From positions 1 to 46,651 of the forward strand of contig MNUO01000108.1 in NCBI GenBank assembly GCA_001871015.1: DNA of 46,651 bases. Direction: 5' to 3'. The DNA comes from Candidatus Desantisbacteria bacterium CG1_02_38_46 (GTDB lineage: Bacteria > Desantisbacteria > UBA1551 > UBA1559). Of the stretch, positions 1,953 to 46,651 are shown piece by piece. Each line of letters opens with the position of its first letter. The stretch's first letter is position 1. The notes under the pieces are model-generated. The model was not told the origin of the DNA. It worked only from the letters and a program-made list of their open reading frames with translations, and did no database searches. A program made the translations under genes and the position numbers.

Positions 1953-2663
1953 ATGACTTATAATGTAAAGACTGAGAATTTTGAAGGTCCTATTGAATTA
2001 CTGCTGGACCTTGTGAAGAAAAATGAGATAGATATATATCAGGTATGGATTAGTAAAGTTACCGCTGAATACCTCAAACATCTAGAAATTGTACAATCTT
2101 TAAATCTGGATGAGGCACTTGAATTTCTTATTATCGCCGCGAGTTTAGTTTATCTAAAGTCTCGCAGTCTCCTTCCACAGGAGACACTTGAACTGGTAGA
2201 AGAAGAGGAGCAGTTAAAGAGGTCTCTCGAGAGCTATGCCCAGGAATACGATAAATTCAGACAGGTTGCCGACCACCTTAAGGAAAAAGCAATAATTGCT
2301 GCCGACCACTTTACCCGTCCTGTACCTGAGGAATTAAAAAAAGAAGAGTATATTGAAGCAACTCTGTTTGACCTTGTTTCTGCTTTTAAGAATATACTTG
2401 CTGAATCAGAAAAGAGGGAATATGTTAGAGAGATAACTCCCGAGGTGGTTACTGTGGAGCAGAAAATGGAAGAGATTATAAGTTTATTACAGGGTGAAAA
2501 TGCGACGGTTCAATTTAGCCGAATTTTTAAAAATGCATTAACCCGGCTTGAAATAGTGGTGTCGTTCCTGGCATTGTTAGAATTGATAAGACTGAGAAAA
2601 GTCCGGGCTATACAGAAAAAATTATTTGCAGAAATCGAACTTGTTGGAGTCCCATCATCTTGA
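1953..2663 (+). CDS. scpA: Segregation and condensation protein A
   Basis: FEGPIELLLDLVKKNEIDI N-terminus; IVVSFLALLEL C-terminus; adjacent to scpB. Confidence 0.95.
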   Translation: MTYNVKTENFEGPIELLLDLVKKNEIDIYQVWISKVTAEYLKHLEIVQSLNLDEALEFLIIAASLVYLKSRSLLPQETLELVEEEEQLKRSLESYAQEYDKFRQVADHLKEKAIIAADHFTRPVPEELKKEEYIEATLFDLVSAFKNILAESEKREYVREITPEVVTVEQKMEEIISLLQGENATVQFSRIFKNALTRLEIVVSFLALLELIRLRKVRAIQKKLFAEIELVGVPSS

Positions 2664-2691
2664 TAGCTAAGGAAATTATACCAAAAGTGTT

Positions 2692-2830
2692 GTAACTCAA
2701 ACCTTTAGGTTTGATATCAGGACTAAAGTCCTGAGTTACAGCAGGTCAGGACTAAAGTCCTGAGTTACAGCAGGTCAGGACTAAAGTCCTGAGTTACGTA
2801 ACTCAGACCTTCAGGTCTGATTTTTCTTGA
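2692..2830. repeat. Cluster of GTAAC-palindrome REP-like repeats (family A)
   Basis: Three copies of tcaggactaaagtcctgagttac at 29-bp period, flanked by opposite-orientation gtaactca(a/g)acc-ttNa-ggt(t/c)tga copies. Confidence 0.9.
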
Positions 2831-2847
2831 AATAATGGAGAGAAGAA

Positions 2848-3375
2848 ATGGAGTCAGCTCAAAATTTACCTCCCAAGTCAATAATAGAATGCTTACTTTT
2901 TGTCTCAGATGTTCCTCTGAATCCTCAAAGACTTGCCCATCTTACCGGGTTATTAGAGGAAGAAGTCAAACGGATTCTAATGGAATTAACCCAGGAGTAT
3001 GAGAGGGATGGTCGCAGTTTCAAGATTGCTGAGATTGCTGATGGATTTTTGATGTGTACGCGGCATGAATTTGCGCCATGGATAAAACTACTGTACGCAT
3101 CTCGAAACAGAGCAAAATTGAGCAAAGCGTCTCTCGAAGTTCTGGCGATACTTGCCTATCGACAACCAATCACAAGAGCAGAGATAGAGGCAATTCGAGG
3201 CGTAGACTGTAGCGGGGTACTGCACACCATTCTGGAGAGAAGGTTGATTAAAATTTCAGGGCGCAAGAAAGTTCTTGGTCGTCCGCTCCTTTACCGCACA
3301 ACAGATGAATTTCTGATTTATTTCGGATTAAAAGATCTTTCAGAATTGCCCCGCGTGGAAGAATTGCGTTTATGA
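2848..3375 (+). CDS. scpB: SMC-Scp complex subunit ScpB
   Basis: LSKASLEVLAILAYRQPITRAEIEAIRGV and GRPLLYRTTDEFL motifs. Confidence 0.96.
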   Translation: MESAQNLPPKSIIECLLFVSDVPLNPQRLAHLTGLLEEEVKRILMELTQEYERDGRSFKIAEIADGFLMCTRHEFAPWIKLLYASRNRAKLSKASLEVLAILAYRQPITRAEIEAIRGVDCSGVLHTILERRLIKISGRKKVLGRPLLYRTTDEFLIYFGLKDLSELPRVEELRL

Positions 3376-4619
3376 AAATCAAGAAGTTAGGGGAATTTGG
3401 ATTAATTGAGCACATCCGCCGCCACTTTACATCTTACACCTCCTCACCTCGGGGAACCCACGTTCTGCGTGGGTCGGGCACCCGCCTTACACAGAATTTC
3501 ATTGGCATCGGTGATGACACCGCTGTCATTAAGATTTCGTCCAAAAAATATTTGCTATGGACAACAGATATTCTTATAGAAAGCATCCACTTTCTCCCTA
3601 AACATCTTTCACTTTTACCTTTTAGATTTCGGCTTTCACCTACTTTTATGCTGGGCTGGAAAGCACTTGCTGTAAATCTGAGTGACATCGCAGCAATGGG
3701 CGGGATACCCCAGTATGCTCTGGTTACCCTCGGATTGAAGGGAAATGAGGATGTAAAATTCGTTGATGAATTATACCGTGGAATGAAATCTTGTAGTGGC
3801 AGAGCTCGCTATGATTGTAGTGGCAGACCTTGGTCTGCCGAAAAGTCGAGTAAACTCGACCACTACAGTAGTGGCAGACCTTGGTCTGCCGTCAAAATCC
3901 TCGGTGGCGATACTACAAAGTCACCCATTTTAGTGATAGATGTTTCTGTTATTGGAGAAGTTGAGAAGAAAAATTTGGTGTTACGCAGGGGCGCATCCCC
4001 CGGCGATGTAATTTGCGTTACAGGTTTCTGCGGCGATTCTGCCGTGGGGCTTGCTATACTTCGTAGAGGCTCGATTCATCGAGCCCATTGTAGTGGTACG
4101 ACCCACCCTTCGGGTGGGTGCCCCGGCTCTGCAAATGAGAGACATCTTATTTGTCGTCATCTAATGCCCACTCCTCGTCTCAAAGAAGCAAGAATTATCG
4201 CAAAGAATCATCTTGCAACTTCTATGATTGATAATAGCGATGGTCTCCTCGCTTCAGTTAAATTTCTGTGTCAATCTTCTGGTGTTGGTGCAAAAATCTA
4301 CGAAGATAAAATTCCCATTTCTAAACAATTAATTAAGGGACTGTTCCACCCGCCTCGGGCTGAGGGACTGTCCTATTGCCGTAGTGGCAGAGTTCACTCT
4401 GCGATACAAAAATTTGCCCTCACCGGTGGCGAAGACTACGAACTCGTTTTTACAGTACCGCCCCAGAAATTAAATGATGTTTTGACTAAAATTCCTGAAT
4501 TAACCGGTACACCCGTGACCGCAATAGGGGAAGTTACAAAAAATAAAGGGATTTTTGTCTGCAATTCCAGTGGCAAGAGGAAAAATATAAAAAATATGGG
4601 TTTTGACCATTTTGTGTAG
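3372..4619 (+). CDS. thiL: Thiamine-monophosphate kinase with several in-frame palindromic insertions
   Basis: GEFGLI, IGDDTAV, VNLSDIAAMGG, GGDT, IDNSDGL, GGEDYEL motifs; 415 aa is longer than usual because of the inserts. Confidence 0.93.
   Translation: MKIKKLGEFGLIEHIRRHFTSYTSSPRGTHVLRGSGTRLTQNFIGIGDDTAVIKISSKKYLLWTTDILIESIHFLPKHLSLLPFRFRLSPTFMLGWKALAVNLSDIAAMGGIPQYALVTLGLKGNEDVKFVDELYRGMKSCSGRARYDCSGRPWSAEKSSKLDHYSSGRPWSAVKILGGDTTKSPILVIDVSVIGEVEKKNLVLRRGASPGDVICVTGFCGDSAVGLAILRRGSIHRAHCSGTTHPSGGCPGSANERHLICRHLMPTPRLKEARIIAKNHLATSMIDNSDGLLASVKFLCQSSGVGAKIYEDKIPISKQLIKGLFHPPRAEGLSYCRSGRVHSAIQKFALTGGEDYELVFTVPPQKLNDVLTKIPELTGTPVTAIGEVTKNKGIFVCNSSGKRKNIKNMGFDHFV
3793..3890. repeat. GTAG-class REP/REPIN cluster (family B) in frame inside thiL
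   Basis: gtagtggcagaccttggtctgcc paired with gtcgagtaaactcgaccactac; 51-bp unit nearly identical to the units in tsaB. Confidence 0.9.
4063..4132. repeat. GTAG-palindrome repeats with a nested hairpin, in frame inside thiL
   Basis: gtagaggctcgattcatcgagccc, then gtagtgg..[acccacccttcgggtgggt]..ctctgc. Confidence 0.8.
4381..4402 (+). repeat. Single family-B REP in frame inside thiL
   Basis: gtagtggcagagttcactctgc. Confidence 0.85.
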
Positions 4620-4756
4620 TGACTGTTCTTGAAGCATCACAATTTTAATAAAATACCGTTTCAAATTTGGATAAACTTTTTGGAGATACGTCTTGGATGC
4701 AAAAAGAAAACGATGAATTACTGAAATATTTTGTATAAAAAATTTTATGGAGGTTG

Positions 4757-5053
4757 ATGATGACAAAGGATGAAATTATTAATATTCTTAGCACTCAATT
4801 GCCTTTTATACAGAAGCAATTCTATGTAAAAGAAATAGGGGTATTCGGATCTTTTGTAAAGCAGGAGTACAGTGAGGAAAGCGACATAGATGTGCTTGTT
4901 GAACTTGATAATAGACATAATGACTTATTTAATTTTATCCGTCTCAAAGACTATCTTGAAGAATTGTTTCATAAAGAAGTTGACCTTGTGATGAAAGGAG
5001 CAATAAAACCAAGAATCAAGGACAAAATATTAAAGGAGGCGATTTATGTCTGA
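4757..5053 (+). CDS. Minimal nucleotidyltransferase (MNT/MntA-type antitoxin)
   Basis: GVFGSFVK...SDIDVLVE pol-beta motif, about 98 aa, overlaps a DUF86 gene. Confidence 0.92.
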   Translation: MMTKDEIINILSTQLPFIQKQFYVKEIGVFGSFVKQEYSEESDIDVLVELDNRHNDLFNFIRLKDYLEELFHKEVDLVMKGAIKPRIKDKILKEAIYV

Positions 5054-5402
5054 GAGAGATTATTTTTTGTTTATTGAAGATATACTAAATGCCATTCTGA
5101 AGATTGAAAAATATACTGAGAACGAAACGTTTGAAACTTTTTCAATAAATGATATGGCTGTTGATGCAGTAATCAGGAATTTTGAAATTATTGGAGAGGC
5201 GGCTAGCAATATCCCAAAAGAAATTCATGGAAAATATCCTTATGTAGAATGGAAGGAAATGACAGGATTCAGAAATGTTATCATTCATGATTATTTTGGA
5301 ATAAATCTTAGCACAGTCTGGAATACAGTAAAAAATAATATTCCTCTACTCAAAGAACACATTATAAAGATGAAAGAAGATTATGAGCAAGCAAACACTT
5401 GA
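5046..5402 (+). CDS. HEPN (DUF86/HepT-type) RNase toxin
   Basis: DAVIRNFEIIGEA and RNVIIHDY (Rx4H) motifs. Confidence 0.93.
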   Translation: MSERDYFLFIEDILNAILKIEKYTENETFETFSINDMAVDAVIRNFEIIGEAASNIPKEIHGKYPYVEWKEMTGFRNVIIHDYFGINLSTVWNTVKNNIPLLKEHIIKMKEDYEQANT

Positions 5403-34712: not shown

Positions 34713-36606
34713 GCGTGCCAAGAAGTTCTTTGATTTCTAATTGACTGAAAGGTGTCAATCATCGTAATTGTCTGTTAGCGATGTAGTCTGAGATGCAATA
34801 TGTGGAGAAATCTGCAGTGTTGTAGCTATTTGACAAATTCCGCTTTAGGCGGGAGAGGCAAACAAGCAGACCGTAACAAAAGTGAACCTATATGTAGCCT
34901 CGTTAGGAGTAAATGGGAAAGGCGAGCCTGTGTTATGTGGGCGAAGCCAGTAATCTATCCCAAGAGACAGATAAAAGCAGGATAGATTTTCTCCGGGGTA
35001 ACAGGGACGGTATGCTTGGAAAGAACTCAAGGGAAACTTGGGAGAGCCTACCCTATCACTCGTAAGGAGTAAAACTTTTGCCTATAACCGAAAGGGAAGT
35101 GGCAATAAGGGTAGGGAGGTAGTCGGAGGAGTTCATAGTAGCGAAGAGAATAGGGACAACAAAACCCTATATGAGCGAAGGAACTCTGCTTTAACTAATG
35201 TTTTCAAAGAAAGGATGGATTTAGTAGATTGGACAATAACCTACCAACTACGGATAAAGTTCAGGAATTTCAGAGAAAACTATACCTTAAGGCAAAGTCA
35301 CAGCCAAACTTCCGCTTCTATGCTTTATACGACAAGATTTATCGAACAGATGTCCTTCAAAAAGCCTGGCAAAGAGTGAGATTAAATCACGGTTCGCCAG
35401 GCATAGATGGGAAAACCATCAAGGACATTGAAGAGGCAGGAGTGGAAGATTTTCTTAAAGGCATTCAGCAAGAGCTGAAAGCAAAGGAATATCAACCATC
35501 GCCAGCGAGGAGAGTTTATATCCCCAAGCCTGATGGCAGGTTAAGACCATTGAGCATACCTACTCTAAAAGATAGGGTTGTTCAGATGGCTTTAAAATTG
35601 GTAATTGAGCCTATTTTCGAAGCACACTTCGAGGATAACTCATATGGATATAGACCTCAAAGGAATGCCCAGCAGGTAGCTTTGGAAATCCGTAAATATC
35701 TTAATTACGGAATGACCGAAGTTATTGAGGCTGACCTTGAAGACTGTTTTGGTTCTATTCCTCACAGGGAACTTCTGGATATGATTGCCAGAAGAGTAGT
35801 TGATGGTAGGGTGCTACACTTAATAAAACTATTCCTGAAAACAGGAGTAATGGAGCAAGGAGGGAAAAGGATAGACGAGACAGGCACTCCACAGGGCGGG
35901 GTAATATCGCCATTATTGGCAAATATATACCTTGACCAGATGGATAAAGGCTGGAAGCCATTAAATGAAACTGCCCGTCTTTTAAGATATGCAGATGATT
36001 TGGTGATTATCACCAAATATAATGCAGAGAAATTTCTCTTTGAACTTCAGAAACTTACTACTAAATTGAAGTTAAAACTTAAGCCAGCAAAAACAAGAGT
36101 AGTAAATGCAGAAGAAGAAAGTTTTGACTTTTTGGGATATAGTTTTAGGAAAGCATTGAACCCACAGAAGACGAAGAAGGTAGCATATTTTTGGCCATCA
36201 CAGAAGGCAGAAAAGACAATAAAAGAGAAAGTGAGGAAGATTACAAATCCTGCTCGACCTGTAAAGGTAGGGCAAGTGATAAAAGAACTCAATCCAGTAA
36301 TTAGGGGATGGGTAAATTACTTTAGAATAGGCAACTCTACAAAGAAATTCGATAATCTTAAGTTGTGTGTAGCAGAGAAAATTAGGAAGTTTATGCGTAG
36401 ACGCAGGCAGAAGGCAGGATATGGATATAAGAAATATCCTGATGAATATCTATACAGCAAATTAGGTTTGTATAGAGACTATCATCTTGCGTGGACGAAA
36501 GCCTTAAGATGAGCGGTTATCGGAAAGCCGTGTGAGGGAAAACCTCACGCACGGTTTGATGAGGGGACGCTGAAAACCCTGTGAGGGCGTCAGTGTTCTA
36601 CTCTAC
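34713..36606 (+). mobile_element. Group II intron, apparently full length
   Basis: 5' GCGTG (variant of GUGYG); domain V gaaagccgtgtgagggaaaacctcacgcacggtttg; domain VI ending ctctAC; candidate EBS1 gttatgt (about 34932) pairs with upstream exon acataat. Confidence 0.88.
35229..36512 (+). CDS. ltrA: Group II intron reverse transcriptase/maturase without endonuclease domain
   Basis: PGIDG, RPLSIPTLKDRVVQ, GTPQGGVISPLLANIYL, RYADD, FDFLGY, LNPVIRGWVNYF; TTG start. Confidence 0.95.
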   Translation: MDNNLPTTDKVQEFQRKLYLKAKSQPNFRFYALYDKIYRTDVLQKAWQRVRLNHGSPGIDGKTIKDIEEAGVEDFLKGIQQELKAKEYQPSPARRVYIPKPDGRLRPLSIPTLKDRVVQMALKLVIEPIFEAHFEDNSYGYRPQRNAQQVALEIRKYLNYGMTEVIEADLEDCFGSIPHRELLDMIARRVVDGRVLHLIKLFLKTGVMEQGGKRIDETGTPQGGVISPLLANIYLDQMDKGWKPLNETARLLRYADDLVIITKYNAEKFLFELQKLTTKLKLKLKPAKTRVVNAEEESFDFLGYSFRKALNPQKTKKVAYFWPSQKAEKTIKEKVRKITNPARPVKVGQVIKELNPVIRGWVNYFRIGNSTKKFDNLKLCVAEKIRKFMRRRRQKAGYGYKKYPDEYLYSKLGLYRDYHLAWTKALR

Positions 36607-36640
36607 GTGGTATAATTAAAAATGAAAAAGGAGAGATAAA

Positions 36641-36853
36641 ATGTGCAAAAAAATGGATTATTTTTTGAAACACGGTAAAGAACTCGAGAAAAAATATGCA
36701 GGAAGATATATTGCTGTAATAGACAACAAAATGGTCGCCGTTGGTTCTAGTCGTGTCGAAGTTTATCAGAAAGCAATAAAATCCATTCCTCCAGATAAAG
36801 ATTTAGGGATATTTTATTTACCATTAAAAAAAGAGGTTTTGACTGCTTTATGA
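36641..36853 (+). CDS. Small DUF5678-like protein
   Basis: LEKKYAGRYIAV pattern; AAGGAG RBS; coupled to the downstream aspartyl protease. Confidence 0.7.
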   Translation: MCKKMDYFLKHGKELEKKYAGRYIAVIDNKMVAVGSSRVEVYQKAIKSIPPDKDLGIFYLPLKKEVLTAL

Positions 36854-37242
36854 AATTTCCTTATTTAGAAGTTAGTAAAGACAATTTTGTTCCTATAATC
36901 ACTTTTGAGATTTGTGCAGGCCAGAGATGGATTAGACTGGAGGCCTATATCGATTCTGGTGCTACTTATAGTATTTTTCATGTGGATACTGCTGGATTGT
37001 TAGATATAGACTATCAAGAAGGGAAAAAGATATTGATTACAGTAGGAGATGGGGGAGTTATTCCTGTATATCTTCATAAATTACCCGTCAGATTTGCTGG
37101 GCTTGAATTTGATGCCATAGTAGGATTTTCGAAAAGTTTAGGTGTTGGGTTCAATCTTTTAGGTAGAGCTGGATTTTTTGAGAAATTTAGAATCTGTTTT
37201 AACGACAGAGATAAAATTGTTGAGGCAACAAAACTTATTTAA
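36850..37242 (+). CDS. Retropepsin-like aspartyl protease
   Basis: AYIDSGA catalytic motif; NLLGR. Confidence 0.8.
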   Translation: MKFPYLEVSKDNFVPIITFEICAGQRWIRLEAYIDSGATYSIFHVDTAGLLDIDYQEGKKILITVGDGGVIPVYLHKLPVRFAGLEFDAIVGFSKSLGVGFNLLGRAGFFEKFRICFNDRDKIVEATKLI

Positions 37243-37388
37243 GAAATAAATTTGTTCTTGAAGTTACTTTGGTCGACTTCCTATATGAGGGGTGGCCATA
37301 TTTCTTCTGATCTAACTACTGCAGGTGTATTACTCTGGCAGTAGTTTTTTTATTTTTAACCTACTCACACAGTTTTTATCTCTTTTAT

Positions 37389-37417
37389 TTGACTTTTTCT
37401 ATTATATAAGTTATAAT
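37389..37417 (+). promoter_or_regulatory. Sigma70-type promoter upstream of the tRNA-Arg fragment
   Basis: TTGACT-N17-TATAAT. Confidence 0.6.
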
Positions 37418-37541
37418 ATATTATACTTTCTGTTATGAAGGGGAGAGCAACGGTATTCTGTGAAAGTGTTCATCATGTTGCAGGAAGTAGGCACAATTTG
37501 GTCCCAAGGGGAGAATTTTAGGAAAAAGTAAATAGAGTTAA

Positions 37542-37600
37542 AGGGACAGACACATTCTACCCCCCGATGTCACATCGGGACGGTAAATGTGTCAGTCCCT
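37542..37600. repeat. Inverted repeat with a nested family-C palindrome
   Basis: agggacagacacatt ... aatgtgtcagtccct enclosing cccgatgtcacatcggg. Confidence 0.75.
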
Positions 37601-37608
37601 ACATACGT

Positions 37609-37650
37609 GCGCCTGTAGCTCAGGAGGATAGAGCAACGGTTTCCTAAACC
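37609..37650 (+). tRNA. 5' half of tRNA-Arg(CCT), truncated; att-like fragment 1
   Basis: GCGCCTG-TA-GCTC-AGGAGGATA-GAGC-A-ACGGT-TTCCTAA-ACC, then no T arm or 3' acceptor strand. Confidence 0.85.
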
Positions 37651-37843
37651 TGTTGTCGCGACTGAAATAAGTGCTGTCAAATCAATGCTTTTTGAGTTCT
37701 GCCACCAAAGTTCGATTTTCATTAGTTTTCATAGACTTTCACGGACTTTCATTTTCTGCGACCACGGTGTTTTGAATCTCTAATTAAAAATGGAACGATT
37801 TTTGTAAAGTTATAAAATATTTAGAAAGTCAGATAAGAGATTT

Positions 37844-39622
37844 ATGAATATGAGAAAAAGTAAAGATTTGTGGGACATAACCGATAAGCCGTCTACTAGA
37901 ACAAAACTTAAAATATTGAGAAAGTGTTTTGATATATGGCTTACAATTTGGAATAAGCAAGGCTGGATAGACAATGAATGGTATATTATGGATCTTTTTG
38001 CAGGAAGAGGTAAATATTCTAGTGACAAGGACACAGTAAGTGGTTCTCCGCTTATTTTTCTTGAAACAATTGCCAGTAAGAAAAAGGATTTGGAAAAGAA
38101 AAATCGTAAGATAAATCTTTTTCTTGTTGAACAAAAGAAAAGAAATTACAAATATCTTAAAAATAACATTGATGGGTTTATGGCGAGCAACAAAGGTTTA
38201 GAAAATGTTGTTGCGATAATAGACTTTAAGAACGATTGTAATAAAATCATAAATAAAATTATAGATTCAATAGAAAATACAAACAAGCACCCTCTTTTTG
38301 TTTTAATAGATCCCTCAGGTATACAGATAAAAGAATCTACAATGGAAATGATTGTGAATTTGAAAAATCCAAAAGAGATATTGTTGAATTATATGTTAGA
38401 AGGAGTTAGAAGGACTAGCGGAATATTGAAGAAGGGACATCGTGGCGAAACTTTAACTATAAAAGAATTAAAAACAGTAGAAACCTTAAAAGCATTTATT
38501 GGTAAGAATGTTAATATAATTAATGTAAGTGACAGGAAAATTTTAGAAGATTATGTAAGCATATTCACTTCACAAGGATTAAAAGTAATTGGATATGATA
38601 TGAAATATCCAGATAGAGATGACATATTATATTACCTTTTATTTGCCTCCAGAAAATTATCAATTACGAACATCGTAAAAGACATCTATGGCAGCCAAAA
38701 AGAAGAAGACCTAGGTTCCACTCTGTTTGGTGGGAAAGATTTTTATAAAAAGGAGATTTTTAGCTTAAATTCAGGATTAGGAAAAACAGAAAGAAAATCT
38801 CTTTTATATAGAACTAAAGTAGAATATGGGAATTGGACAATTAATCACGTTACTGGATGTATGCATGGATGCAAATTTCCTTGCTATGCTATGATGATGG
38901 CAAAAAAATTTGGATGGATTAAAAATTATGAAGACTGGAGAAGTCCCAAAATTGCCACAAATGCATTGGAAATTCTGGAAAAAGAGATTCCTAAATATAA
39001 AGATGAAATTGATTTTGTTCATCTTTGTTTTATGTCTGATCCGTTTATGTACAACTCTGAAAAAGAGGATTTAATTCCCGAGATAAAAAGTTTAACTTTA
39101 AATATAATTGAGAGATTAAATGCAGAGGGAATAAAAGTGACTACCTTAACAAAAGGGATTTATCCTGATGAAATTTTAGATACCAGAAAGTTTTTGCAGT
39201 TCAACGAGTACGGTATAACTTTAGTTTCTCTAAACAAAGATTTTAAAAAGGATTTTGAGCCATTTTCAGCACCTTATGAAAAAAGAATAGAGTCTTTACA
39301 AAAATTAGCTAAAAAAGGATTAAACACTTGGGTAAGTATGGAACCTTATCCTACCCCAGAACTGGATAATACATCAGCAAATATTGAAAAAATCTTACAG
39401 GGCATTTCATTCGTTAAGAAAATAATATTTGGCAAATTAAATTATCACAGAATTGCTTATTGTAACGGCAATAGTGTCCACATATGGAAAAATAATGAAG
39501 ATTTTTATAAAGAAATGGCTAAAAGAGTAATAGATTTTTGTAGTAAGAATGACATAAAGTATCACATTAAATTTGGCACACCGTTAAGTAAAAGAAATAC
39601 AATAAATATTTTTAAGAAGTGA
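37844..39622 (+). CDS. Fusion of a TcmP-like (three-Cys-motif partner) domain and a radical-SAM-like domain
   Basis: N-half: TKLKIL, MDLFAGRG, GSPL, LIDPSG, YYLLFASR; C-half: NHVTGCMHGCKFPCYA, CFMSDPF, TWVSMEPYP. Confidence 0.8.
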   Translation: MNMRKSKDLWDITDKPSTRTKLKILRKCFDIWLTIWNKQGWIDNEWYIMDLFAGRGKYSSDKDTVSGSPLIFLETIASKKKDLEKKNRKINLFLVEQKKRNYKYLKNNIDGFMASNKGLENVVAIIDFKNDCNKIINKIIDSIENTNKHPLFVLIDPSGIQIKESTMEMIVNLKNPKEILLNYMLEGVRRTSGILKKGHRGETLTIKELKTVETLKAFIGKNVNIINVSDRKILEDYVSIFTSQGLKVIGYDMKYPDRDDILYYLLFASRKLSITNIVKDIYGSQKEEDLGSTLFGGKDFYKKEIFSLNSGLGKTERKSLLYRTKVEYGNWTINHVTGCMHGCKFPCYAMMMAKKFGWIKNYEDWRSPKIATNALEILEKEIPKYKDEIDFVHLCFMSDPFMYNSEKEDLIPEIKSLTLNIIERLNAEGIKVTTLTKGIYPDEILDTRKFLQFNEYGITLVSLNKDFKKDFEPFSAPYEKRIESLQKLAKKGLNTWVSMEPYPTPELDNTSANIEKILQGISFVKKIIFGKLNYHRIAYCNGNSVHIWKNNEDFYKEMAKRVIDFCSKNDIKYHIKFGTPLSKRNTINIFKK

Positions 39623-39723
39623 GGCAACATAACATAATCGAACGTAGCAAGAGATTTTGAAAGAATTATTCATGAAAATGCAGATAAGATATTAAGTTAA
39701 TCCGTAGAAAAAGGAGTGATAGA

Positions 39724-40302
39724 ATGCAAAATCTTTTTAATGAATTAAAGACTCTTTTGGAAAAAGACAATAGATTGGTAATCGAAGGCAAACTTTTAAA
39801 AAACAAAGTTATTGAACTGGCACTGAAATTAGATTCAGAATTGTTGAAACTACTTCTTAAGAATGAAAGTATAAAGAAACATTTCTTTCAGGAAGTCGAG
39901 GGAGCACTTGTTTTTGATAAAATAAAATTCCAAAAATTTGTCAGCAATAAGGCATTTTTACCTGATAGTTATACTTCGTTTAAAAATAAAATAGGACTTG
40001 TAACTGAAAATGAAGAATATCTCTCTGAAAGTAAAGAGGTTGTTTTAACCTGGCCATATAAGGACTGTGTGCTTGAAGGTGGTATGGAAAAAGAGGACGA
40101 GAAACGAGCTGAAATATTTTACAATGAAATACTTGCTCCAGATGAAATTGACCGCTTACTTGAACCGAAAGTTTTAACTAACTTCAAAAGAATAGATAAA
40201 GACGGAGAACATAAAGTAAAAGAAAAAATTATTTTTCTGGATTTCTTGCGTATGGTTCTGCGTTATTCCTTTTGTGCTTTTTGCAGAAGAGGTTCATCTT
40301 AA
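39724..40302 (+). pseudogene. N-terminal fragment of a type III R-M Mod methyltransferase
   Basis: LLKNKVIELAL, FLPDSYTSFKNKIGL, WPYKDCVLEGG, EIFYNEILAPDEIDRLLEPK; similarity ends near 40220, with no DPPY or FxGxG motif. Confidence 0.8.
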
Positions 40303-40915
40303 AGATGGTAAAATAATCCCTGGAACCATTGTGTCTTCTGACACTGATTCAGTTAATCTGAAGACAGAGTATGGGGAAATTCGGATAGAACGAAAAGATA
40401 TAAATAAAGTGGAATACGCAAAGCCAATCGAAAGAAAAAAATTAAGAAAATTTGCAGTTGGGTTTGAAATGAACCCCTATTCTTATTACACTTCTGCAAT
40501 ACCCTTATGGGCGTTCGGCATTTCTTATTTACCTTCACCTAAAGTTGCAATTCAGGCAATGGGAAGTTATTTTTCCTTGTGGGGTAGGAGTGTTTCAAGC
40601 ATCTACTTTTTTTATGGATATCCAATTAAAGTGGCAGAAAATCCAGAGATTAGCTTATTCATTAACGCCGGATGTGCTTATCAACATGCCCATTATGAAG
40701 CAACTTATTACTCATCTTCTTATGATTATGATGCCTGGTCTGCCTTAGTAGGCCTTACCCTCGAGTCCCACCCTCTTTCTTATTTGCCTAATTTTGGATA
40801 TTCGGTCCGGGGCGGAATTAGTTATTCTTGGTTTCCCAACCTGACTTCTTATTCATACGCTGGAAATGCTATGTGGTACTATTTGAGCGCAGGTCTTTTT
40901 TATTATTTGTTCTAA
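40220..40915 (+). CDS. Probable outer-membrane beta-barrel protein that has lost its start codon
   Basis: Frame reads KKKLFFWISCVWFCVIPFVLFA-EE (signal peptide) directly after an in-frame TAA; aromatic-rich; ends YYLF; ORF track starts it at 40274. Confidence 0.6.
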   Translation, partial: KKKLFFWISCVWFCVIPFVLFAEEVHLKDGKIIPGTIVSSDTDSVNLKTEYGEIRIERKDINKVEYAKPIERKKLRKFAVGFEMNPYSYYTSAIPLWAFGISYLPSPKVAIQAMGSYFSLWGRSVSSIYFFYGYPIKVAENPEISLFINAGCAYQHAHYEATYYSSSYDYDAWSALVGLTLESHPLSYLPNFGYSVRGGISYSWFPNLTSYSYAGNAMWYYLSAGLFYYLF

Positions 40916-41021
40916 GAATACAGCATAGAAAAATAAATACTACCAAAATTAATGATACAATAACACAATTGGGCTATAGACCTTTTTCCTAAAGGGAATA
41001 AATGGTTTATATAGATTCGGC

Positions 41022-41086
41022 TTGACAGACAAAGATTTTTATGGTATAATGTCTATAAAATCAGACAATTGTCTATAAAATAAGAC
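41022..41086 (+). promoter_or_regulatory. Sigma70 promoter with tandem palindromic operators
   Basis: TTGACA-N17-TATAAT (TG-extended), followed by gtctataaaatcagac and gtctataaaataagac at 20-bp spacing. Confidence 0.75.
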
Positions 41087-41097
41087 AAAGGAGAAAA

Positions 41098-41715
41098 ATG
41101 GAGTATCAGAAAGTTTTAGATAAAATTCTTGGTCAAAAAACAAAAGTAAAGATTCTTCGTTACATGATAAGTTCTCATAATGAGCAAAGTGGCCGCCAGA
41201 TTGCGCAGGAGTCTGGAGTAAACCACGAACAGTGTCATCGTGTCTTGCAGGAACTCTATCGGGAAGGATTATTGAACATGCACCATGCTGGCAATGCATA
41301 CTTGTTCAGTCTGCGAAAGGAACACTACATAGTTAATAAGGCAATTATTCCCCTCTTTCAAACAGAATTAAGATTGCTACAGACTTTAATTGAAGAAATC
41401 AAACACATTAAAAATGCCAAAATTTCTTCCCTGGTACTTTTTGGCAGTATTGCCAAGGGGAAGGGGCGACCCCATAGCGACATTGATGTTCTGGTAGTGG
41501 TCAGAAACAAAGTGAATAAAGAAAAAATATCTGATGAGATTCACAGGAAAAATGATTATTTTCTCTCGCGCTATGGAAATGCTCTATCACCCTACGTAGT
41601 CAGCGAAGAGGAATTTATAAGACGATATAAAAAGGGAGACAAACTTATCAAGGAAATTGTCAGGTGTGGAAAAGTTGTTTCTGGTAAAACACCGGGAGAA
41701 CTTATTACAAAATGA
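41098..41715 (+). CDS. wHTH-fused nucleotidyltransferase (MNT antitoxin)
   Basis: SGRQIAQESGV HTH; VLFGSIAKG..SDIDVLVV. Confidence 0.88.
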   Translation: MEYQKVLDKILGQKTKVKILRYMISSHNEQSGRQIAQESGVNHEQCHRVLQELYREGLLNMHHAGNAYLFSLRKEHYIVNKAIIPLFQTELRLLQTLIEEIKHIKNAKISSLVLFGSIAKGKGRPHSDIDVLVVVRNKVNKEKISDEIHRKNDYFLSRYGNALSPYVVSEEEFIRRYKKGDKLIKEIVRCGKVVSGKTPGELITK

Positions 41716-42128
41716 ATCCCAAAAAGATACCTTTCCAAAAAATTGAACATTCAAGATTTGCCATTTATCTAAAGAAAGCGAAAGATTTTTATCAATCAAT
41801 GCTGAGGGCATACAGCGATAACAATTGGCATTCCGTTGGGTTAGAGGCAGTCCATTGCGCTATTTCGGCTACTGATGCTCTTTTGGTTTATCGGGCAGGG
41901 ATAAGGTGCACAAGTCAGAGACATCTTGATATAGTTGATGTTTTAGTTGACCAGATAAAGACAGAAAAGTCCCAAGAAAATATCAGAACTCTGATTAAAA
42001 TTTTAGAAATGAAAAACTTAGTTGAATATGAAGATAGATTGTTCACTCAAAAAGAGGCATCCGAAATACTCAAGCGCACAGAAAGATACTTTAGCTGGGT
42101 AAAAAATCAATTGCCATCGGATGTTTGA
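41712..42128 (+). CDS. HEPN-domain protein (putative toxin)
   Basis: YLKKAKDF, AVHCAISATDA, H, KNLVEY pattern; coupled to the MNT gene. Confidence 0.82.
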   Translation: MNPKKIPFQKIEHSRFAIYLKKAKDFYQSMLRAYSDNNWHSVGLEAVHCAISATDALLVYRAGIRCTSQRHLDIVDVLVDQIKTEKSQENIRTLIKILEMKNLVEYEDRLFTQKEASEILKRTERYFSWVKNQLPSDV

Positions 42129-42348
42129 ATTTGTGCGCTTGTAAGAACCCTCCGATTAGCATCGGAGGAACCTTGTTGTTCGGGAGTAGCGTCGGTAAAA
42201 TGTCACAATATGCTTCCCCCCTGCTTTTTTTCAAAAGCAAGACGGGGGGACGAGCAGTAACCTTCGCTCCAGGATAGTATGTATTAATAGAATTTGTTTT
42301 TTTGTGTTAAACTTTGACACTCTGATACTTTGACACTGTTTTTATTGT

Positions 42349-42390
42349 GCGCCTGTAGCTCAGGAGGATAGAGCAGCGGTTTCCTAAACC
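42349..42390 (+). tRNA. 5' half of tRNA-Arg(CCT), truncated; att-like fragment 2
   Basis: Identical to 37609-37650 except for one base; truncated at the same point. Confidence 0.85.
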
Positions 42391-42653
42391 TGTATTCACA
42401 ATTAAAATAAGTCTAGCCAAATCAATTGTTTTTGAGTTCTGCCAGCGAAGGTCGGTTTTTACGGAGTTTCATTTTTGCAACCACATTAACCCAGACATGG
42501 AGAGCAAGTGAGGTAAATATTATGATAGCAGAAATAGGTTTTCGTGGTGAATAATATGAGCCTACTCGGAAGGAAGTAGACTTTTTATTTTTGGATTAAA
42601 ATCAACTTAAAAAGTGTTATAACAAATAGGGATAGGTCATATAGGAATAATTT

Positions 42654-44708
42654 ATGAAAAAATTTGTGATGCTTACATTATTAATTTCTACTTTGATTCC
42701 CTCGTTAAGTTTTTGTATGCTTGGAAATGATGAAATAAAAACATATATTCGAAATCTTAAATTTGGGACTCCTGATGATAAAAAGGATGCTGCTTATAGA
42801 TTAGGTAATAGTGGTGATACAATGGTAGTGCCTTTTCTAGTTGAAGCATTAAAAGATGAAAACGCTGACGTAAGAGCTTGGGTTGCAATGGCACTGGGTT
42901 ATGCAGAGGATAGATCCGCAGTTCCTGCTCTTGTAGAAGCATTAAAAGATAATGAGGTGGGCGTTCGAGTAAGTGTGGCCATGGCGCTTGGTGAAATAAA
43001 AGACCCGCAAGCAGTTGAACCTCTTATAGCGGCTTTGAAGGATAAAAATGAAAGAGTTAGGCAAAATGCAGCAGCAGCACTTGGTCAAATAAAAGACAAA
43101 AGGGCAGTAAAACCCTTGATGGAAGCTTTAAAGGATAGTGATCCAACGGTAAGGGAATTTGCTGCGGGATCTTTAGGATACATAAAAGACACTGCAGCTG
43201 TTGAAGCCATAGTAGATATTATCAACAGTGATATTAATGACCGTGTCCGGTGGATTGCTTCAGAGGCTTTGGGAAATTTAAAAGATTCTAGAGCCGTGAA
43301 ATCTTTAATTATAGCTTTAAATGATAAGAACTCGAGTGTTCGAACGGGGGCGGCCTATGCTCTTGGCGAGATAAAAGACCCTCAAGCAGTAGCACCTCTT
43401 ATTAAAGCATTAAATAATCCAGATTGTCGAGCAGAGGCAGCAAGAGCTCTTGGAAAGATAGGAGATGTTGAAGCAGTGGAGCCTCTCATTACTTTTTTAA
43501 AAGATGAAAACCGTTATGTCCGGCAGTTTACAGCAGAGGCTTTAGGAAAAATAGGAGATAATCGAGCTATAGAATTCCTTATTGGAGCTTTGGATGATAC
43601 AGATTGGGAGGTTCGTGAAAACGTAGTGTGTGCTTTAGGGAAGATAGAAGACCCTAAAATTATAAAACCTTTAATTGCTGCTTTAAAAGATGAAGACAAT
43701 CGTGTTCGCGAGAAGATAATTGCTGTGTTAATAGAAATGAAAGAACAGCCCGTAAAATCCTTAATTGCATCTTCAAAAGATAAAAATTGCAATGTAAGAG
43801 AAGGGGTGATTAAAATTCTGGGAGAAATAAAAGAAACACAAACTTTAGAATATCTGATTGAGGCTTCAAAAGACAAAGATTGGAATGTTCAATATTCAGC
43901 CGTACAAGGTTTAACTAAAATGGGAAAATTGGCAGTTAAACCCCTGATTGCTTTACTGGAGGACAAGAAATTAGATTCCGAAATAAAAAGATTCGTGATT
44001 AGCGGTTTAGGTGAAATAGGAGGTAATGAAATTACAAAATACCTTATCGCTACTTTGAAAGATAGAAATCCTGCTATTAGGGCTGGTGCGGGATATACTC
44101 TTGGCAGAATGAAAGAAACAAAAGCGATAAAATCCTTGATCGCTCTTTTAAAAGATAATACAGTGTTTGAGCATGAAGAAGGCAAAACTGTTGGTATGAT
44201 GGCTTCAGAGGCATTAGCAGAAATAGGTAAAGAAGCTATCAAACCGCTTGTTTCCTGTCTTCATGATACAAACCCATTAATAAGAGCTGGAGCTGTTTAC
44301 GCTTTTGGAGAAATAGGTGATACTCAATTTATAGATTCGCTTATTGAAGCATTAAAAGATAAAGATGAAAGAGTTAGAATCAACGCAGTAAGAGCTCTTG
44401 ATAACATGCATGATATAAGAGCATCTGAACCATTAACTAAAGTTTTGAACGATAAAAGCTCTGAGGTTAGATGGCAGGCAGCATCTATTCTGGGAGATTT
44501 AAAATATAAGGGAGCCATTAATTCATTATTAAAACTTGCTTCTGAAGACGAAGATCAATTTGTACGTTGGACTTCGGTAATTGCTCTAAAATATATTGGA
44601 GATCCCAAGGTGTTGCCGTATCTTAAAAATTTATTAACAAAAGAGAAAGACGAAGAAGTAAAAGAAGAACTTCAGCAAGCGATAGAAGATTTGTCTGAGC
44701 AGCAATAG
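42654..44708 (+). CDS. Exported HEAT/PBS-lyase repeat protein
   Basis: Signal-peptide-like N-terminus; many ~31-aa repeats (AVEPLIAALKD..VR..AA.ALG.I). Confidence 0.92.
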   Translation: MKKFVMLTLLISTLIPSLSFCMLGNDEIKTYIRNLKFGTPDDKKDAAYRLGNSGDTMVVPFLVEALKDENADVRAWVAMALGYAEDRSAVPALVEALKDNEVGVRVSVAMALGEIKDPQAVEPLIAALKDKNERVRQNAAAALGQIKDKRAVKPLMEALKDSDPTVREFAAGSLGYIKDTAAVEAIVDIINSDINDRVRWIASEALGNLKDSRAVKSLIIALNDKNSSVRTGAAYALGEIKDPQAVAPLIKALNNPDCRAEAARALGKIGDVEAVEPLITFLKDENRYVRQFTAEALGKIGDNRAIEFLIGALDDTDWEVRENVVCALGKIEDPKIIKPLIAALKDEDNRVREKIIAVLIEMKEQPVKSLIASSKDKNCNVREGVIKILGEIKETQTLEYLIEASKDKDWNVQYSAVQGLTKMGKLAVKPLIALLEDKKLDSEIKRFVISGLGEIGGNEITKYLIATLKDRNPAIRAGAGYTLGRMKETKAIKSLIALLKDNTVFEHEEGKTVGMMASEALAEIGKEAIKPLVSCLHDTNPLIRAGAVYAFGEIGDTQFIDSLIEALKDKDERVRINAVRALDNMHDIRASEPLTKVLNDKSSEVRWQAASILGDLKYKGAINSLLKLASEDEDQFVRWTSVIALKYIGDPKVLPYLKNLLTKEKDEEVKEELQQAIEDLSEQQ

Positions 44709-45200: not shown

Positions 45201-46651
45201 ATGATGAAAAAAATAAAATTTATTTTAGGTTTAGTAGTAATGGGAAGTTTAATTAGTGGAATTACTTTTGCAGGTATAACTAATTTCGCTTCTGTTGAAT
45301 ATATGAATTTAGCCGGAGAAGATACAACCACAAGCTTCTCTAATTTTGTAATTGCTTATTTTCAACCGGGGATAAGCAATGTAAGTGGAAACCCTCCTGA
45401 TTTTAAATTTAGCCCTAATAATGATGCAAACAAAGATACCTTAACAATTAATTTTACTATTGTTGATACTGATAGCATTGCGGAAACAATCGCTGTCTAT
45501 ATTTACGATAAAGTAATGAATCTTGTTAAGACCATCAAGTATGACACCGAAGTCCCACTCACGTATTGTCCAGAAACAGGTGAAACAAAAGTAGATTGTG
45601 TAGCAACCTGGAATGGGGACAGCGGTGGACTAATTGTTCCTTCGGATACTTATATTTATAAAATTGAAGTAAGAGATCCTGAGGGTTCGGAAGCGATTCC
45701 GAACACCGGAACAATTGTGCTCGATATAACACCGCCCTTTGGTGCACTCCTTATTAATAATGGCAATATCTATACAAATATTCTAAATGTAACCTTGAAT
45801 ATTTCTGCTTCTGATACTCATACTTTTCCAGAAAAGATGTTTTTAAGTTATGTTTCAGATTTTTCCACTGGCGGTACTCTCTCCTATTCTTTAACATATC
45901 CCTGGACATTGTTGGAGGAAGGAGTAAACACTGTTTATATTAAGTTTATTGATTATGTGGGAAATATTTCTGAAGGTTATTCTGATGCAATTATTTATGA
46001 TCCTAATTTTCCTACCGGTTCTGTTTCTATTAACAGTGATGCTACCTACACAGATACCACAGGTGTTGTTTTGTATTTTACAGCGATTAACACCCACACT
46101 GATTTTGATAGTGTGGTGGTGAGTAATACTTCTACTTTTGTTGCAGACCAAATTGAGACCCATACTTACAGCAATACTTTGCCTTGGGGATTGACTGGCG
46201 ATGGAGAAAAAATTGTTTATGTAAAATTTATTGATAAGGAAGGAAATATTTCTCTTACTGTCTACTCCAATTCCATCATTGTTGACCTTACTCCTCCTGA
46301 TACTGGTTTAATCTCTATTAATAATAAGGATACCTTTACTAATTCCAATACTGTTACTTTACAAATCTCTGCTGGTGACACTTTGTCCGGTGTTGCCAAG
46401 ATGGTCATTGATAATACCAGTGCTTTCAACTCTGACAAGGTTAATACTTATACCTTTAATAATACTACTTCTTATAATACCGAAGTGGCGCAATGGGTAT
46501 TAGAATCTGGAGACAATACCAAGACTGTTTATGTGAAATTTATTGATGCAGTAGGGAATGTTTCCTCTGTCTACTCTGATTCCATCATTGTTGACCTTAC
46601 TTCTCCTGATACTGGTTTAATCTCTATTAATAATAAGGATACCTTTACTAA
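45201..46651 (+). CDS. Large secreted/surface protein with FlgD-Ig-like domain and tandem Ig-like repeats (runs off the window; absent from the ORF track)
   Basis: Hand translation: MMKKIKFILGLVVMGSLISGITFA signal, FSPNND..TWNG, repeated DxTPP..I.IN..YTN..VTL.ISA.D units; AAAGGA RBS. Confidence 0.85.
   Translation, partial: MMKKIKFILGLVVMGSLISGITFAGITNFASVEYMNLAGEDTTTSFSNFVIAYFQPGISNVSGNPPDFKFSPNNDANKDTLTINFTIVDTDSIAETIAVYIYDKVMNLVKTIKYDTEVPLTYCPETGETKVDCVATWNGDSGGLIVPSDTYIYKIEVRDPEGSEAIPNTGTIVLDITPPFGALLINNGNIYTNILNVTLNISASDTHTFPEKMFLSYVSDFSTGGTLSYSLTYPWTLLEEGVNTVYIKFIDYVGNISEGYSDAIIYDPNFPTGSVSINSDATYTDTTGVVLYFTAINTHTDFDSVVVSNTSTFVADQIETHTYSNTLPWGLTGDGEKIVYVKFIDKEGNISLTVYSNSIIVDLTPPDTGLISINNKDTFTNSNTVTLQISAGDTLSGVAKMVIDNTSAFNSDKVNTYTFNNTTSYNTEVAQWVLESGDNTKTVYVKFIDAVGNVSSVYSDSIIVDLTSPDTGLISINNKDTFT

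What the first reader, a model, noticed from the sequence alone, without database searches (positions are those of the whole stretch)
37607..42484. Two orphan 5' halves of tRNA-Arg(CCT), each followed by the same arm sequence: tandem islands that may replace the tRNA 5' end
Seen: 37609-37650 and 42349-42390 (4740 bp apart) both stop at TTCCTAAACC. Both continue into a homologous ~95-115-bp non-tRNA tract (tgt..aaataagt..caaatcaat..tttttgagttctgcca..acgga.tttcatttt..accac). No 3' half and no integrase is in the window. Established: most tRNA-targeting integrases leave a 3' fragment. Inference: elements crossing over at the anticodon loop and carrying the 5' half, stacked in tandem and now integrase-less or mobilised in trans. 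Alternatives are a tRNA-derived SINE-like repeat or an expressed tRNA-half RNA.
Basis: partly seen in the sequence, partly recalled or inferred. Interest (0 to 1): 0.8.

Follow-up and report, generated by a model that had tools for sequence, protein, structure and literature searches.

The report
Stacked integrase-less islands in tRNA genes
Two leftover front halves of an arginine tRNA gene mark the left edges of small acquired gene packets stacked in that gene by a site-specific recombinase that swaps the front rather than the usual back of the tRNA; this layout is rare but already known.

Summary
Positions 37609-37650 and 42349-42390 are 41/42-identical 5' parts (tRNA positions 1-41) of tRNA-Arg(CCT). 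Each is followed by a homologous ~105-125-nt non-coding arm.

The key new result is that the same arm family also follows two orphan 5' halves of a different tRNA, Ser(TGA), on contig C91. The intact tRNA-Ser lies at the end of a third contig, C95. A further Ser 5' half ends a 1.95-kb insert at a non-tRNA site on C67. The arms carry conserved blocks and 2-5 TTYCAY repeats at an exact 10-bp period, and show no conserved RNA fold.

Best reading (about 0.7): these are attL and attP-like junctions of tandem islands. They were made by an anticodon-loop tyrosine integrase whose elements carry the tRNA 5' half. This reversed orientation is a known minority, 159 of 3919 Islander islands.

All three complete units (4740, 1744 and about 1950 bp) lack a recombinase and carry defence or toxin-antitoxin-type cargo. 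Neither the integrase nor the intact tRNA-Arg(CCT) is in this 88%-complete groundwater MAG, and no excision product was seen.

This scan has noted similar integrase-less stacks at tRNAs in other genomes. I class it as a new member of a known kind, of moderate interest.

The parts
37609..37650 (+). Orphan 5' part of tRNA-Arg(CCT), copy A (tRNA positions 1-41: acceptor 5' strand, D arm, anticodon stem-loop up to ACC)
   Evidence: It is the leftmost copy, so under the model it is the displaced host half (attL).
37651..37775 (+). Arm A. The first 11 nt (TGTTGTCGCGA) still resemble the tRNA variable region (8/11 to G001's GTTTGTCGGGA). Conserved block at 37665-37695. Four TTYCAY repeats at 37717, 37727, 37737 and 37747. 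It ends in TGCGACCACGG.
37651..42390 (+). Island 1, a 4740-bp unit running from arm A to the end of half B. It has no recombinase gene.
   Evidence: GC is 0.29-0.36 against about 0.41 in the core.
37844..39622 (+). Cargo: 592-aa fusion of a TcmP-like N-terminal part and a radical SAM domain
   Evidence: TIGR04474 2.5e-31 and PF04055 8e-11; PADLOC PDC-M30A 3e-29
39724..40302 (+). Cargo: stump of a type III restriction-modification methylase. Its best stretch matches profile positions 4-128 of the 708-position PADLOC model.
   Evidence: PF12564 2.5e-26; PADLOC MTase_III 6.5e-45
40274..40915 (+). Cargo: 213-aa ORF of unknown function
   Evidence: No Pfam family; only weak N-terminal NCBIfam domain matches below their cut-offs
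41098..42128 (+). Cargo: wHTH-nucleotidyltransferase (41098-41715) plus HEPN protein (41712-42128), a MNT/HEPN-type toxin-antitoxin-like pair
   Evidence: PF01909, PF18765 and PF05168; PADLOC PDC-M05A 1e-19
42349..42390 (+). Orphan 5' part of tRNA-Arg(CCT), copy B (A27 changed to G). Under the model it is the 5' half brought by island 1, now joined to the arm of island 2 (an attP-like junction).
   Evidence: Bridged by contigs in 4 of 4 runs.
42391..42495 (+). Arm B. Conserved block at 42405-42435. One TTYCAY repeat at 42467, with a TTTTAC variant that I read 10 bp upstream of it. It ends in TGCAACCAC.
42654..44708 (+). Island 2 cargo: 684-aa HEAT-repeat protein
   Evidence: PF13646 7e-133
45201..46649 (+). 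Island 2 cargo: repeat-rich protein that runs off the contig. Its internal 282-312-bp repeats are the likely cause of the contig end.
   Evidence: families D4-D6; joint 'goes back 309'
37439..37459 (+). Possible third, decayed tRNA-Arg fragment (17/21 to tRNA positions ~17-37). Low confidence.
   Evidence: family D8. By my own estimate an 11-mer match here is about what chance gives.

Best explanation
The two half-tRNAs are recombination scars of a family of integrative elements that enter tRNA genes at the anticodon stem-loop in the reversed orientation.

Each element's attP consists of its own upstream region, tRNA positions 1 to ~43, and a ~110-nt arm. The arm has a short stretch resembling the tRNA's next bases, a conserved 31-nt block, and 2-5 TTYCAY sites phased at 10 bp.

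A tyrosine-type integrase (not seen here) would exchange strands in the 7-nt anticodon loop. The element's 5' half would then join the host's 3' half as the working gene. The host's old 5' half would be left at the far left, fused to the arm.

A second integration into the rebuilt gene gives the tandem layout seen: half A + arm A + island 1 + half B + arm B + island 2 ..., followed by the intact tRNA beyond the contig end.

The complete units are small and have no recombinase. They are either decayed remnants or units that a related element's integrase can move in trans.

Shown: the halves, the arms, their phased repeats, the tandem order, the same arm at two tRNA species, the intact tRNA-Ser on a separate contig, and the foreign composition and cargo.

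Inferred: the type of recombinase, the crossover point, the order of events, and any present-day mobility.
For: 1. The arm follows 5' halves of two different tRNAs and occurs nowhere else in the MAG: 4 of 4 arm copies lie directly after a tRNA 5' half.

2. The halves are 41/42 (Arg) and 44/44 (Ser, 4 copies) identical. The arms are only 69-80% alike over the first 70 alignment columns and do not group by tRNA: ArgA-ArgB 51/67, ArgA-Ser1 52/65, Ser1-Ser2 50/68. This fits separate insertions by diverged relatives, not local duplication.

3. Identity to the tRNA ends on the 3' side of the anticodon stem. Partial likeness runs on for ~10 nt, as expected if the attP core site mimics the attB core site.

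4. TTYCAY repeats start 65-67 nt after the core at exact 10-bp steps. There are 4, 1, 3 and 4 strict copies per arm, against 0.14 expected in 60 bp.

5. The intact tRNA-Ser(TGA) has core genes downstream and lies 106 bp from a contig end. Its upstream 32 nt match those of the C67 element-borne half at 18/32, including a 12-mer (shuffle p ~0.005). They match the leftmost Ser half's upstream at only 9/32.

6. C67 shows a 5' half with no 3' half at the right end of a restriction-modification insert inside the ybeY-dgkA cluster.

7. Island GC is 0.29-0.38 against about 0.41 in the core. The cargo is of defence or toxin-antitoxin type.

8. The arms show no conserved RNA fold: 7 predicted pairs, 0 covarying, -1.7 kcal/mol.

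9. Islands with 5' fragments and anticodon-centred sites are on record: 159 of 3919 and 2083 of 3919 islands (PMC4383910 Table 1). PMC6563490 states that 5'-distal recombination is 'considerably less frequent'.
Against: No integrase is linked to any of the five halves. The MAG's PF00589 hits are XerD, a XerC-like gene and a Xer-like trio, and its one serine recombinase is on another contig. PF14659 and PF13356 give nothing.

No intact tRNA-Arg(CCT) or orphan 3' half is in the MAG, so the right end of the Arg array is unseen. The order of C91 and C95 is also unproven.

The contigs of four metagenome runs show no joint that skips exactly 4740 bp and no circle junction. Contigs drop rare variants, so this is weak evidence.

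The arm was found in no other organism: 0 hits in genome contigs (two patterns), 0 in viral contigs, and only this organism's own contig in metagenome contigs. There is therefore no comparative proof of mobility.

The right ends of the islands share little sequence, apart from C95 with C67.

The left junction on C67 has an unexplained 30-nt insert inside the anticodon.
Confidence: 0.7

Rival explanations
1. A cassette system that never carries its own recombinase. Small promoter-plus-tRNA-half-plus-arm units would be shuffled in trans, between at least two tRNA genes, by one recombinase encoded elsewhere. Candidates are a gene in the unassembled 12% of the genome, the Xer-like trio on C15, or the host Xer proteins. 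This would be analogous to integron cassettes or Xer-dependent elements.
For: 3 of 3 complete units (4740, 1744 and ~1950 bp) lack any recombinase. The only part shared by all units is the non-coding arm. The orphan halves are still perfect or near-perfect. Both target anticodon arms share GGTNTNNNAAACC, which only 4 of 41 predicted tRNAs of the MAG carry (the motif was defined after the fact). This scan's earlier notes describe similar integrase-less stacks in other phyla (unchecked AI notes, not independent evidence).
Against: No recombinase has been tied to the sites. No excision or circle joint was seen. One cargo gene is a stump (type III methylase; type II endonuclease on C67), which looks like decay. 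Perfect halves are equally expected after recent burial. The arm is not dif-like by eye.
Confidence: 0.17
2. A tRNA-derived, SINE-like retro-repeat or template-switch product made by the group II intron reverse transcriptases present in this genome.
For: Group II intron pieces lie in the window at 34746-36606 and 202-286, with an RT-maturase ORF at 35229-36512. The repeat begins with a tRNA-derived part followed by an unrelated part.
Against: There are only four arm copies, all in two tandem arrays and all in the tRNA's orientation. The tRNA parts are exact and end at the anticodon stem rather than covering the whole tRNA. Two different tRNAs carry the same arm. Kilobases of cargo lie between copies. 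An intact tRNA-Ser has the same 5' half. I saw no poly-A or intron-like tail in the arm sequences.
Confidence: 0.04
3. An expressed RNA gene: a tRNA half fused to a functional non-coding RNA, or a split tRNA gene whose 3' half is encoded elsewhere.
For: The halves begin exactly at tRNA position 1. A promoter-like site (TTGACT-17-TATAAT, 11/12 matches) lies at 37389-37417.
Against: There is no Rfam match and no conserved fold or covariation in the arm. No 3' half of tRNA-Arg(CCT) is anywhere in the MAG. tRNA-Ser(TGA) exists as a normal intact gene. Promoter-like sites in the region are no more frequent than in shuffles: 17 found against 21.4 expected.
Confidence: 0.04
4. An assembly or binning artefact, or an ordinary segmental duplication.
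For: The genome is a 133-contig MAG. Contigs break inside copy A.
Against: Copy B with both flanks is bridged by independent contigs in 4 of 4 runs with 0 differing letters. A JGI metagenome contig reproduces the Ser array exactly. The arms are only ~76% alike while the halves are ~98-100% alike, which a duplication would not give.
Confidence: 0.03

Closest known systems
Genomic islands in tRNA genes with a displaced 5' fragment ('reversed target orientation'; Zhao & Williams 2002, J Bacteriol 184:859; counted in Islander)
   Same: A displaced tRNA 5' fragment lies upstream in the gene's orientation, the site is centred on the anticodon, and tandem stacking occurs. Islander Table 1 lists 159 of 3919 islands with a 5' fragment, 2083 with anticodon-centred sites and 125 tandems of two or more (PMC4383910, passages read).
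   Different: Islander requires an integrase in each island, and none is present here. Two of the three complete units are under its 2-kb lower limit. The intact tRNA-Arg is unseen. The Zhao & Williams paper itself is not held; I saw only its citation and one sentence about it in PMC6563490.
CIMEs (cis-mobilizable elements) and tandem accretion with ICEs in Streptococcus thermophilus (recalled from memory; no paper read here)
   Same: Short units bounded by attachment sites that lack their own integrase, lie in tandem at the integration site, and could be moved by a related element's integrase.
   Different: CIMEs lie at the 3' end of a protein gene (fda), not in a tRNA. A helper ICE is known there and none is known here.
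Tycheposons of Prochlorococcus (bioRxiv 10.1101/2020.12.28.424599; passages read)
   Same: tRNA genes, Ser(TGA) among them, serve as landing sites. Elements sit side by side separated only by a partial tRNA. Degenerate remnants and further partial tRNAs are scattered in the islands, and the elements carry cargo.
   Different: Tycheposons are defined by hallmark genes, including their own deep-branching tyrosine recombinase, and none of these was found here. I did not check which tRNA half they displace. There is no sequence relation.
Phage lambda attP, P' arm (recalled from memory)
   Same: A run of direct, helically phased short repeats lies some 60-100 bp from the crossover, with an A/T-rich block between that resembles an IHF-type site (CAAATCAATnnTTTTTGA against WATCAANNNNTTR).
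   Different: The resemblance is only architectural. No binding protein is known, and the integrase gene is not next to the arm as it is in lambda.
Integron cassettes and Xer-dependent integrative elements (recalled from memory)
   Same: Recombinase-less units are stacked head to tail at one site.
   Different: There is no attC-like imperfect palindrome, no IntI and no dif-like site. The repeat unit here is a tRNA half plus an arm.

Membership tests
tRNA-integrated genomic island (Islander definition, PMC4383910) | Displaced fragment of the tRNA gene, an end fragment in the same orientation as the gene | tested here: met
   The halves start at tRNA position 1 and end at 41 (Arg) or 43-44 (Ser), all in one orientation per locus.
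tRNA-integrated genomic island (Islander definition, PMC4383910) | Intact cognate tRNA gene at the other end, with 5' fragments lying upstream of it | tested here: inconclusive
   Arg: there is no intact Arg(CCT) in the 87.8%-complete MAG, and the window is a whole contig. Loose contig ends in run X2 read like a tRNA-Arg 3' part, but this is weak. Ser: the intact gene is on C95, 106 bp from the contig end, and its linkage to C91 is unproven.
tRNA-integrated genomic island (Islander definition, PMC4383910) | Tyrosine integrase gene inside each island | tested here: not met
   0 of 3 complete units and 0 of 2 incomplete ones hold PF00589 or PF00239.
tRNA-integrated genomic island (Islander definition, PMC4383910) | Length 2-200 kb | tested here: inconclusive
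   The 4740-bp unit passes. The 1744-bp and ~1950-bp units fall below the limit.
CIME-like integrase-less unit bounded by att sites | Bounded on both sides by attachment sites of one integrase family, with no recombination or transfer genes | tested here: met
   Island 1 lies between half A + arm A and half B. The Ser unit lies between two half+arm copies. Neither contains a recombinase.
CIME-like integrase-less unit bounded by att sites | Excision or transfer when a related integrase-bearing element is present | not testable with these tools
   No helper was found. Contigs of 4 runs show no exact excision joint, and contigs cannot show rare forms.
Tycheposon | Hallmark genes, including the family's own tyrosine recombinase | tested here: not met
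   The islands contain no recombinase. I found no replication-type family among their Pfam, NCBIfam and PADLOC matches.
Integron gene cassette | attC imperfect inverted repeat and an IntI integrase with attI | tested here: not met
   The arm has no conserved hairpin. The integron-integrase models score far below their cut-offs on all five tyrosine recombinases.
Split tRNA gene (Nanoarchaeota type) | Separate 3'-half gene, with a leader complementary to the sequence after the 5' half | tested here: not met
   No 3' half of Arg(CCT) is in the MAG. Ser(TGA) is an intact gene. The same arm follows two different tRNAs.
Known RNA family (Rfam 15) | Match at or above the gathering score | tested here: not met
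   Only group II intron models match in the window, at 202-286, 34746-34881 and 36523-36606.

The most novel reading that the evidence does not exclude
The units may never have been autonomous. They could be cassettes of an integron-like system whose docking site is 'own promoter + tRNA 5' half + phased-repeat arm'. A single unlinked or host recombinase would move them among several tRNA genes that share the anticodon-arm motif GGTNTNNNAAACC. Each insertion would re-equip the tRNA gene with a new promoter and leave the previous one facing the cargo.
Probability: 0.15. Interest if true: 0.7.

Novelty: new member of a known kind. Interest (0 to 1): 0.38.

Why it matters
It documents the rare reversed mode of tRNA-gene integration, in which the 5' half and therefore the promoter of the tRNA is replaced. 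The host is a groundwater bacterium from a phylum with only two species genomes among those held here. One arm family serves two different tRNA genes.

It also adds a case to a pattern this scan keeps meeting: small recombinase-less packets of defence-type genes stacked at tRNA genes. If these packets are moved in trans, tRNA genes would act as cassette docks much as integrons do. That idea can be tested with long reads from the source samples.

Tried and rejected
Search for the intact tRNA-Arg(CCT) or a 3' half:
- ARAGORN on all 133 contigs, BLAST with G001's tRNA and a search for the acceptor 3' strand found none.
- Synteny with G001's tRNA-Arg locus gave no right-hand junction. One gene matched the start of C109, but no tRNA is there.

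Search for the arm elsewhere:
- Phylum search: 2 genomes, found in the window's own genome only.
- Metagenome contigs: 1 contig, 100% identical to C91.
- Genome contigs with two patterns: 0 hits.
- Viral contigs: 0 hits.
- Viral contigs with the Arg half plus TGT: 0 hits.
- Viral contigs with the Ser anticodon arm: 4 contigs, all ordinary intact tRNA-Ser genes of other organisms.

Read laying:
- No joint skips exactly 4740 bp.
- A joint 37510->42348 (one contig, depth 2, side 22) is too weak to count.
- Parts without cover and shares of words say nothing about absence.

Search for integrase fragments: PF14659 and PF13356 gave none.

Right-end comparison:
- No shared sequence among the island right ends, apart from C95 with C67.
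- A likeness between 42150-42275 and repeats upstream of G001's tRNA-Arg turned out to involve short repeats and a hairpin that also occur on other contigs.

Empty-site check for C67: dgkA was not found in G001 with this query.

Rejected ideas:
- Tn7/CAST-type homing. It inserts downstream of tRNAs and duplicates only a few bases.
- IS91-type end capture. No Rep gene is present.
- Arm as a dif-like Xer site. No such symmetry by eye.

Orientation of cargo: all 7 island ORFs in the window lie on the + strand like the halves. I drew no inference, because 40 of the window's 42 called ORFs are on the + strand anyway.

Literature tool: searches failed on term format and were re-sent in a valid form. 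PMC139527 is not held.

Full report
**Observation**

The window is one whole contig (C76) of a 133-contig MAG of 1.73 Mb, 87.8% complete and 38.5% GC.

Positions 37609-37650 and 42349-42390 are the same 42 nt apart from one A/G difference. They correspond to positions 1-41 of a tRNA-Arg(CCT). The only same-order genome held, G001, has the intact gene with one mismatch in this part.

After ...TTCCTAAACC both copies leave the tRNA and enter a homologous tract. The repeat finder gives 126 nt at 82% identity with a spacing of 4740 bp.

ARAGORN finds no tRNA in the window. Rfam finds only group II intron pieces, and these lie elsewhere. None of the 41 ORFs scanned against Pfam is a recombinase.

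Independent Logan contigs from four groundwater runs bridge copy B and both of its flanks without a single differing letter. The duplication is therefore real.

**What else carries the arm**

BLAST and a profile of the arm find exactly four copies in the MAG, at E 5e-26 to 1e-36, with the next hit at E 0.31.

The other two copies lie on contig C91, 1744 bp apart on the minus strand. Each directly follows a 44-nt 5' half of a different tRNA, Ser(TGA).

The intact tRNA-Ser(TGA) has the identical 44 nt. It sits 106 bp from the end of contig C95, with core genes downstream.

A fifth orphan half, again Ser(TGA) positions 1-44, lies on C67. It forms the right end of a ~1.95-kb insert between ybeY and dgkA that holds a type II methylase and an endonuclease stump. 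No 3' half follows it. The left junction of that insert has a partial, interrupted Ser-like stretch and a diverged arm start. This junction is unexplained.

**Anatomy of the arm**

The first ~10 nt still resemble the bases that follow in the real tRNA. For Arg copy A this is 8 of 11 against G001.

Next comes an invariant-rich block, AAATAAGT-N5-CAAATCAAT-NN-TTTTTGA.

TTYCAY repeats begin 65-67 nt from the end of tRNA identity, at exact 10-bp steps. There are 4, 1, 3 and 4 strict copies per arm, plus variants in register that I read in the arm sequences. Chance would give 0.14 copies in 60 bp.

The four arms are 69-80% alike over the first 70 columns and do not group by tRNA. The halves are 98-100% alike. 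There is no conserved RNA fold: 0 of 7 predicted pairs covary.

A short core-like stretch, an A/T-rich block and helically phased direct repeats make up the layout of the arm of a tyrosine-integrase attP. The comparison with lambda's P' arm is from memory.

**Islands**

GC falls from about 0.41 in the core to 0.29-0.38 after 38 kb.

- Island 1 (37651-42390) carries a TcmP-radical SAM fusion, a stump of a type III methylase, an unknown ORF and a nucleotidyltransferase/HEPN pair.
- Island 2 carries a HEAT-repeat protein and a repeat-rich protein that runs off the contig.
- The Ser units carry unknown ORFs, a MntA-like nucleotidyltransferase, a NucS-like protein and an IS.

None of the three complete units holds a recombinase.

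The MAG's tyrosine recombinases are XerD, a XerC-like protein and a Xer-like trio. Its one large serine recombinase is on another contig. No integrase N-terminal domains were found.

**Mechanism**

The simplest account is site-specific integration at the anticodon stem-loop by elements that carry the tRNA's 5' half.

attP would be the element's upstream region, tRNA positions 1-43 and the arm. After crossover in the loop, the element's 5' half and promoter serve the rebuilt gene. The host's old 5' half ends up at the left, fused to the arm. Repeated integration stacks the units.

Four results fit this account:
- the tandem order at two loci;
- the position of the intact tRNA-Ser;
- the C67 insert, in which the 5' half has travelled with foreign DNA;
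- the upstream 32 nt of the working tRNA-Ser, which match the C67 element-borne copy (18/32 with a 12-mer, p ~0.005) but not the leftmost Ser half (9/32).

Both targets share GGTNTNNNAAACC in the anticodon arm. Only 4 of 41 predicted tRNAs have this motif, but I defined it after seeing the targets.

**What is not shown**

Three things are unseen: the integrase, the intact tRNA-Arg(CCT), and any excision or circle.

- Two contigs in run X2 continue from 37658 into a sequence that reads like a tRNA-Arg T arm and acceptor end. They may come from a relative.
- The arm occurs in no other genome or contig searched, so mobility cannot be shown by comparison.

**Known or new**

Recombination with the 5'-distal part of tRNA genes is described as much less frequent than with the 3' part (PMC6563490, passage read, which cites Zhao & Williams 2002; that paper is not held).

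Islander counted 159 islands with a 5' fragment among 3919, 2083 with anticodon-centred sites and 125 tandems (PMC4383910, Table 1, read).

Side-by-side elements separated by partial tRNAs, and decayed remnants, are described for tycheposons (preprint passages).

Integrase-less units between att sites recall CIMEs (from memory). Earlier notes of this scan report similar integrase-less stacks at tRNAs in other phyla. These notes are unchecked and are not evidence here.

**Verdict**

The element type is a new family of a known, uncommon kind.

The open and more interesting question is whether such recombinase-less packets are only wreckage or are moved in trans. I put the trans-mobilised cassette reading at about 0.15-0.17.

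Noticed in passing
window 34746-36606 and 202-286: Group II intron pieces. D1-D4 matches at 34746-34881, domains V-VI at 36523-36606 and an RT-maturase ORF at 35229-36512, just after the cobalt chelatase genes. A second intron 3' end lies at the contig start. The bins at 36110-36953 have 8-25 times the local depth in metagenome contigs, so these pieces are multi-copy in the community.
   Followed up: partly
window 36639/40301 and 40453/34106: In runs X2, X5 and X9, contigs at 2-3 times the local depth join 36639 to 40301 and 40453 to 34106, with 29 and 39 foreign letters between. This is another arrangement, probably in another genome, that links an intron copy with a homologue of ORF 40274-40915.
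   Followed up: no
G000 contig C67 (L022) 2224-4177: A ~1.95-kb insert inside the conserved ybeY-dgkA cluster. It holds a type II methylase fused to an SNase domain and a 119-aa endonuclease stump. At its left end are three 24-bp tandem repeats (GTAGTGGTCGAGATTGCTCGAYTT) and a tRNA-Ser-like stretch broken by 30 nt inside the anticodon.
   Followed up: partly
L004 1565-1582 and 1786-1803 (G001): In the same-order genome, the last ~12 nt of tRNA-Arg(CCT) plus a T run recur 221 bp downstream. This looks like a small att-type repeat of the usual 3' kind beside the same tRNA.
   Followed up: no
G000 contigs C123 (13787-13805, 14221-14240) and C126 (3740-3758): Exact 19-20-nt copies of the 3' ends of tRNA-Lys(CTT), tRNA-Gly and tRNA-Val(TAC) lie roughly 130-170 bp downstream of their genes. 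These are short 3'-type direct repeats of the ordinary orientation.
   Followed up: no
G000 C91 5331-5906 and G001 C115 1914-2489 (L021): A zeta-toxin-like kinase gene, 82% identical between the two genomes, lies just upstream of the leftmost tRNA-Ser half in G000 and just upstream of the intact tRNA-Arg(CCT) in G001.
   Followed up: partly
window 45900-46651: The last ORF has 282-312-bp internal repeats, the last pair 96% alike. Contigs of two runs 'go back 309' here. This repeat, not an att site, is the likely reason the contig ends.
   Followed up: partly
G000 contig C15 2018-5326: Three Xer-like tyrosine recombinase genes lie head to tail (347, 340 and 423 aa). The layout is that of a recombinase trio and is unlinked to the tRNA halves.
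   Followed up: partly
G000 C109 1-330 and C67 2440-2500: Both share a short repeat (..CAGAGTAAACTCTGCACTTCC..AGAGTGCCTAC..TTTTGGCCACTACA..) ahead of genes. Its nature is unknown.
   Followed up: no
window 4754-5402 and 41098-42128: The contig holds two nucleotidyltransferase/HEPN-type pairs, one in the core part and one in island 1. A third MntA-like gene lies in the Ser unit on C91.
   Followed up: no
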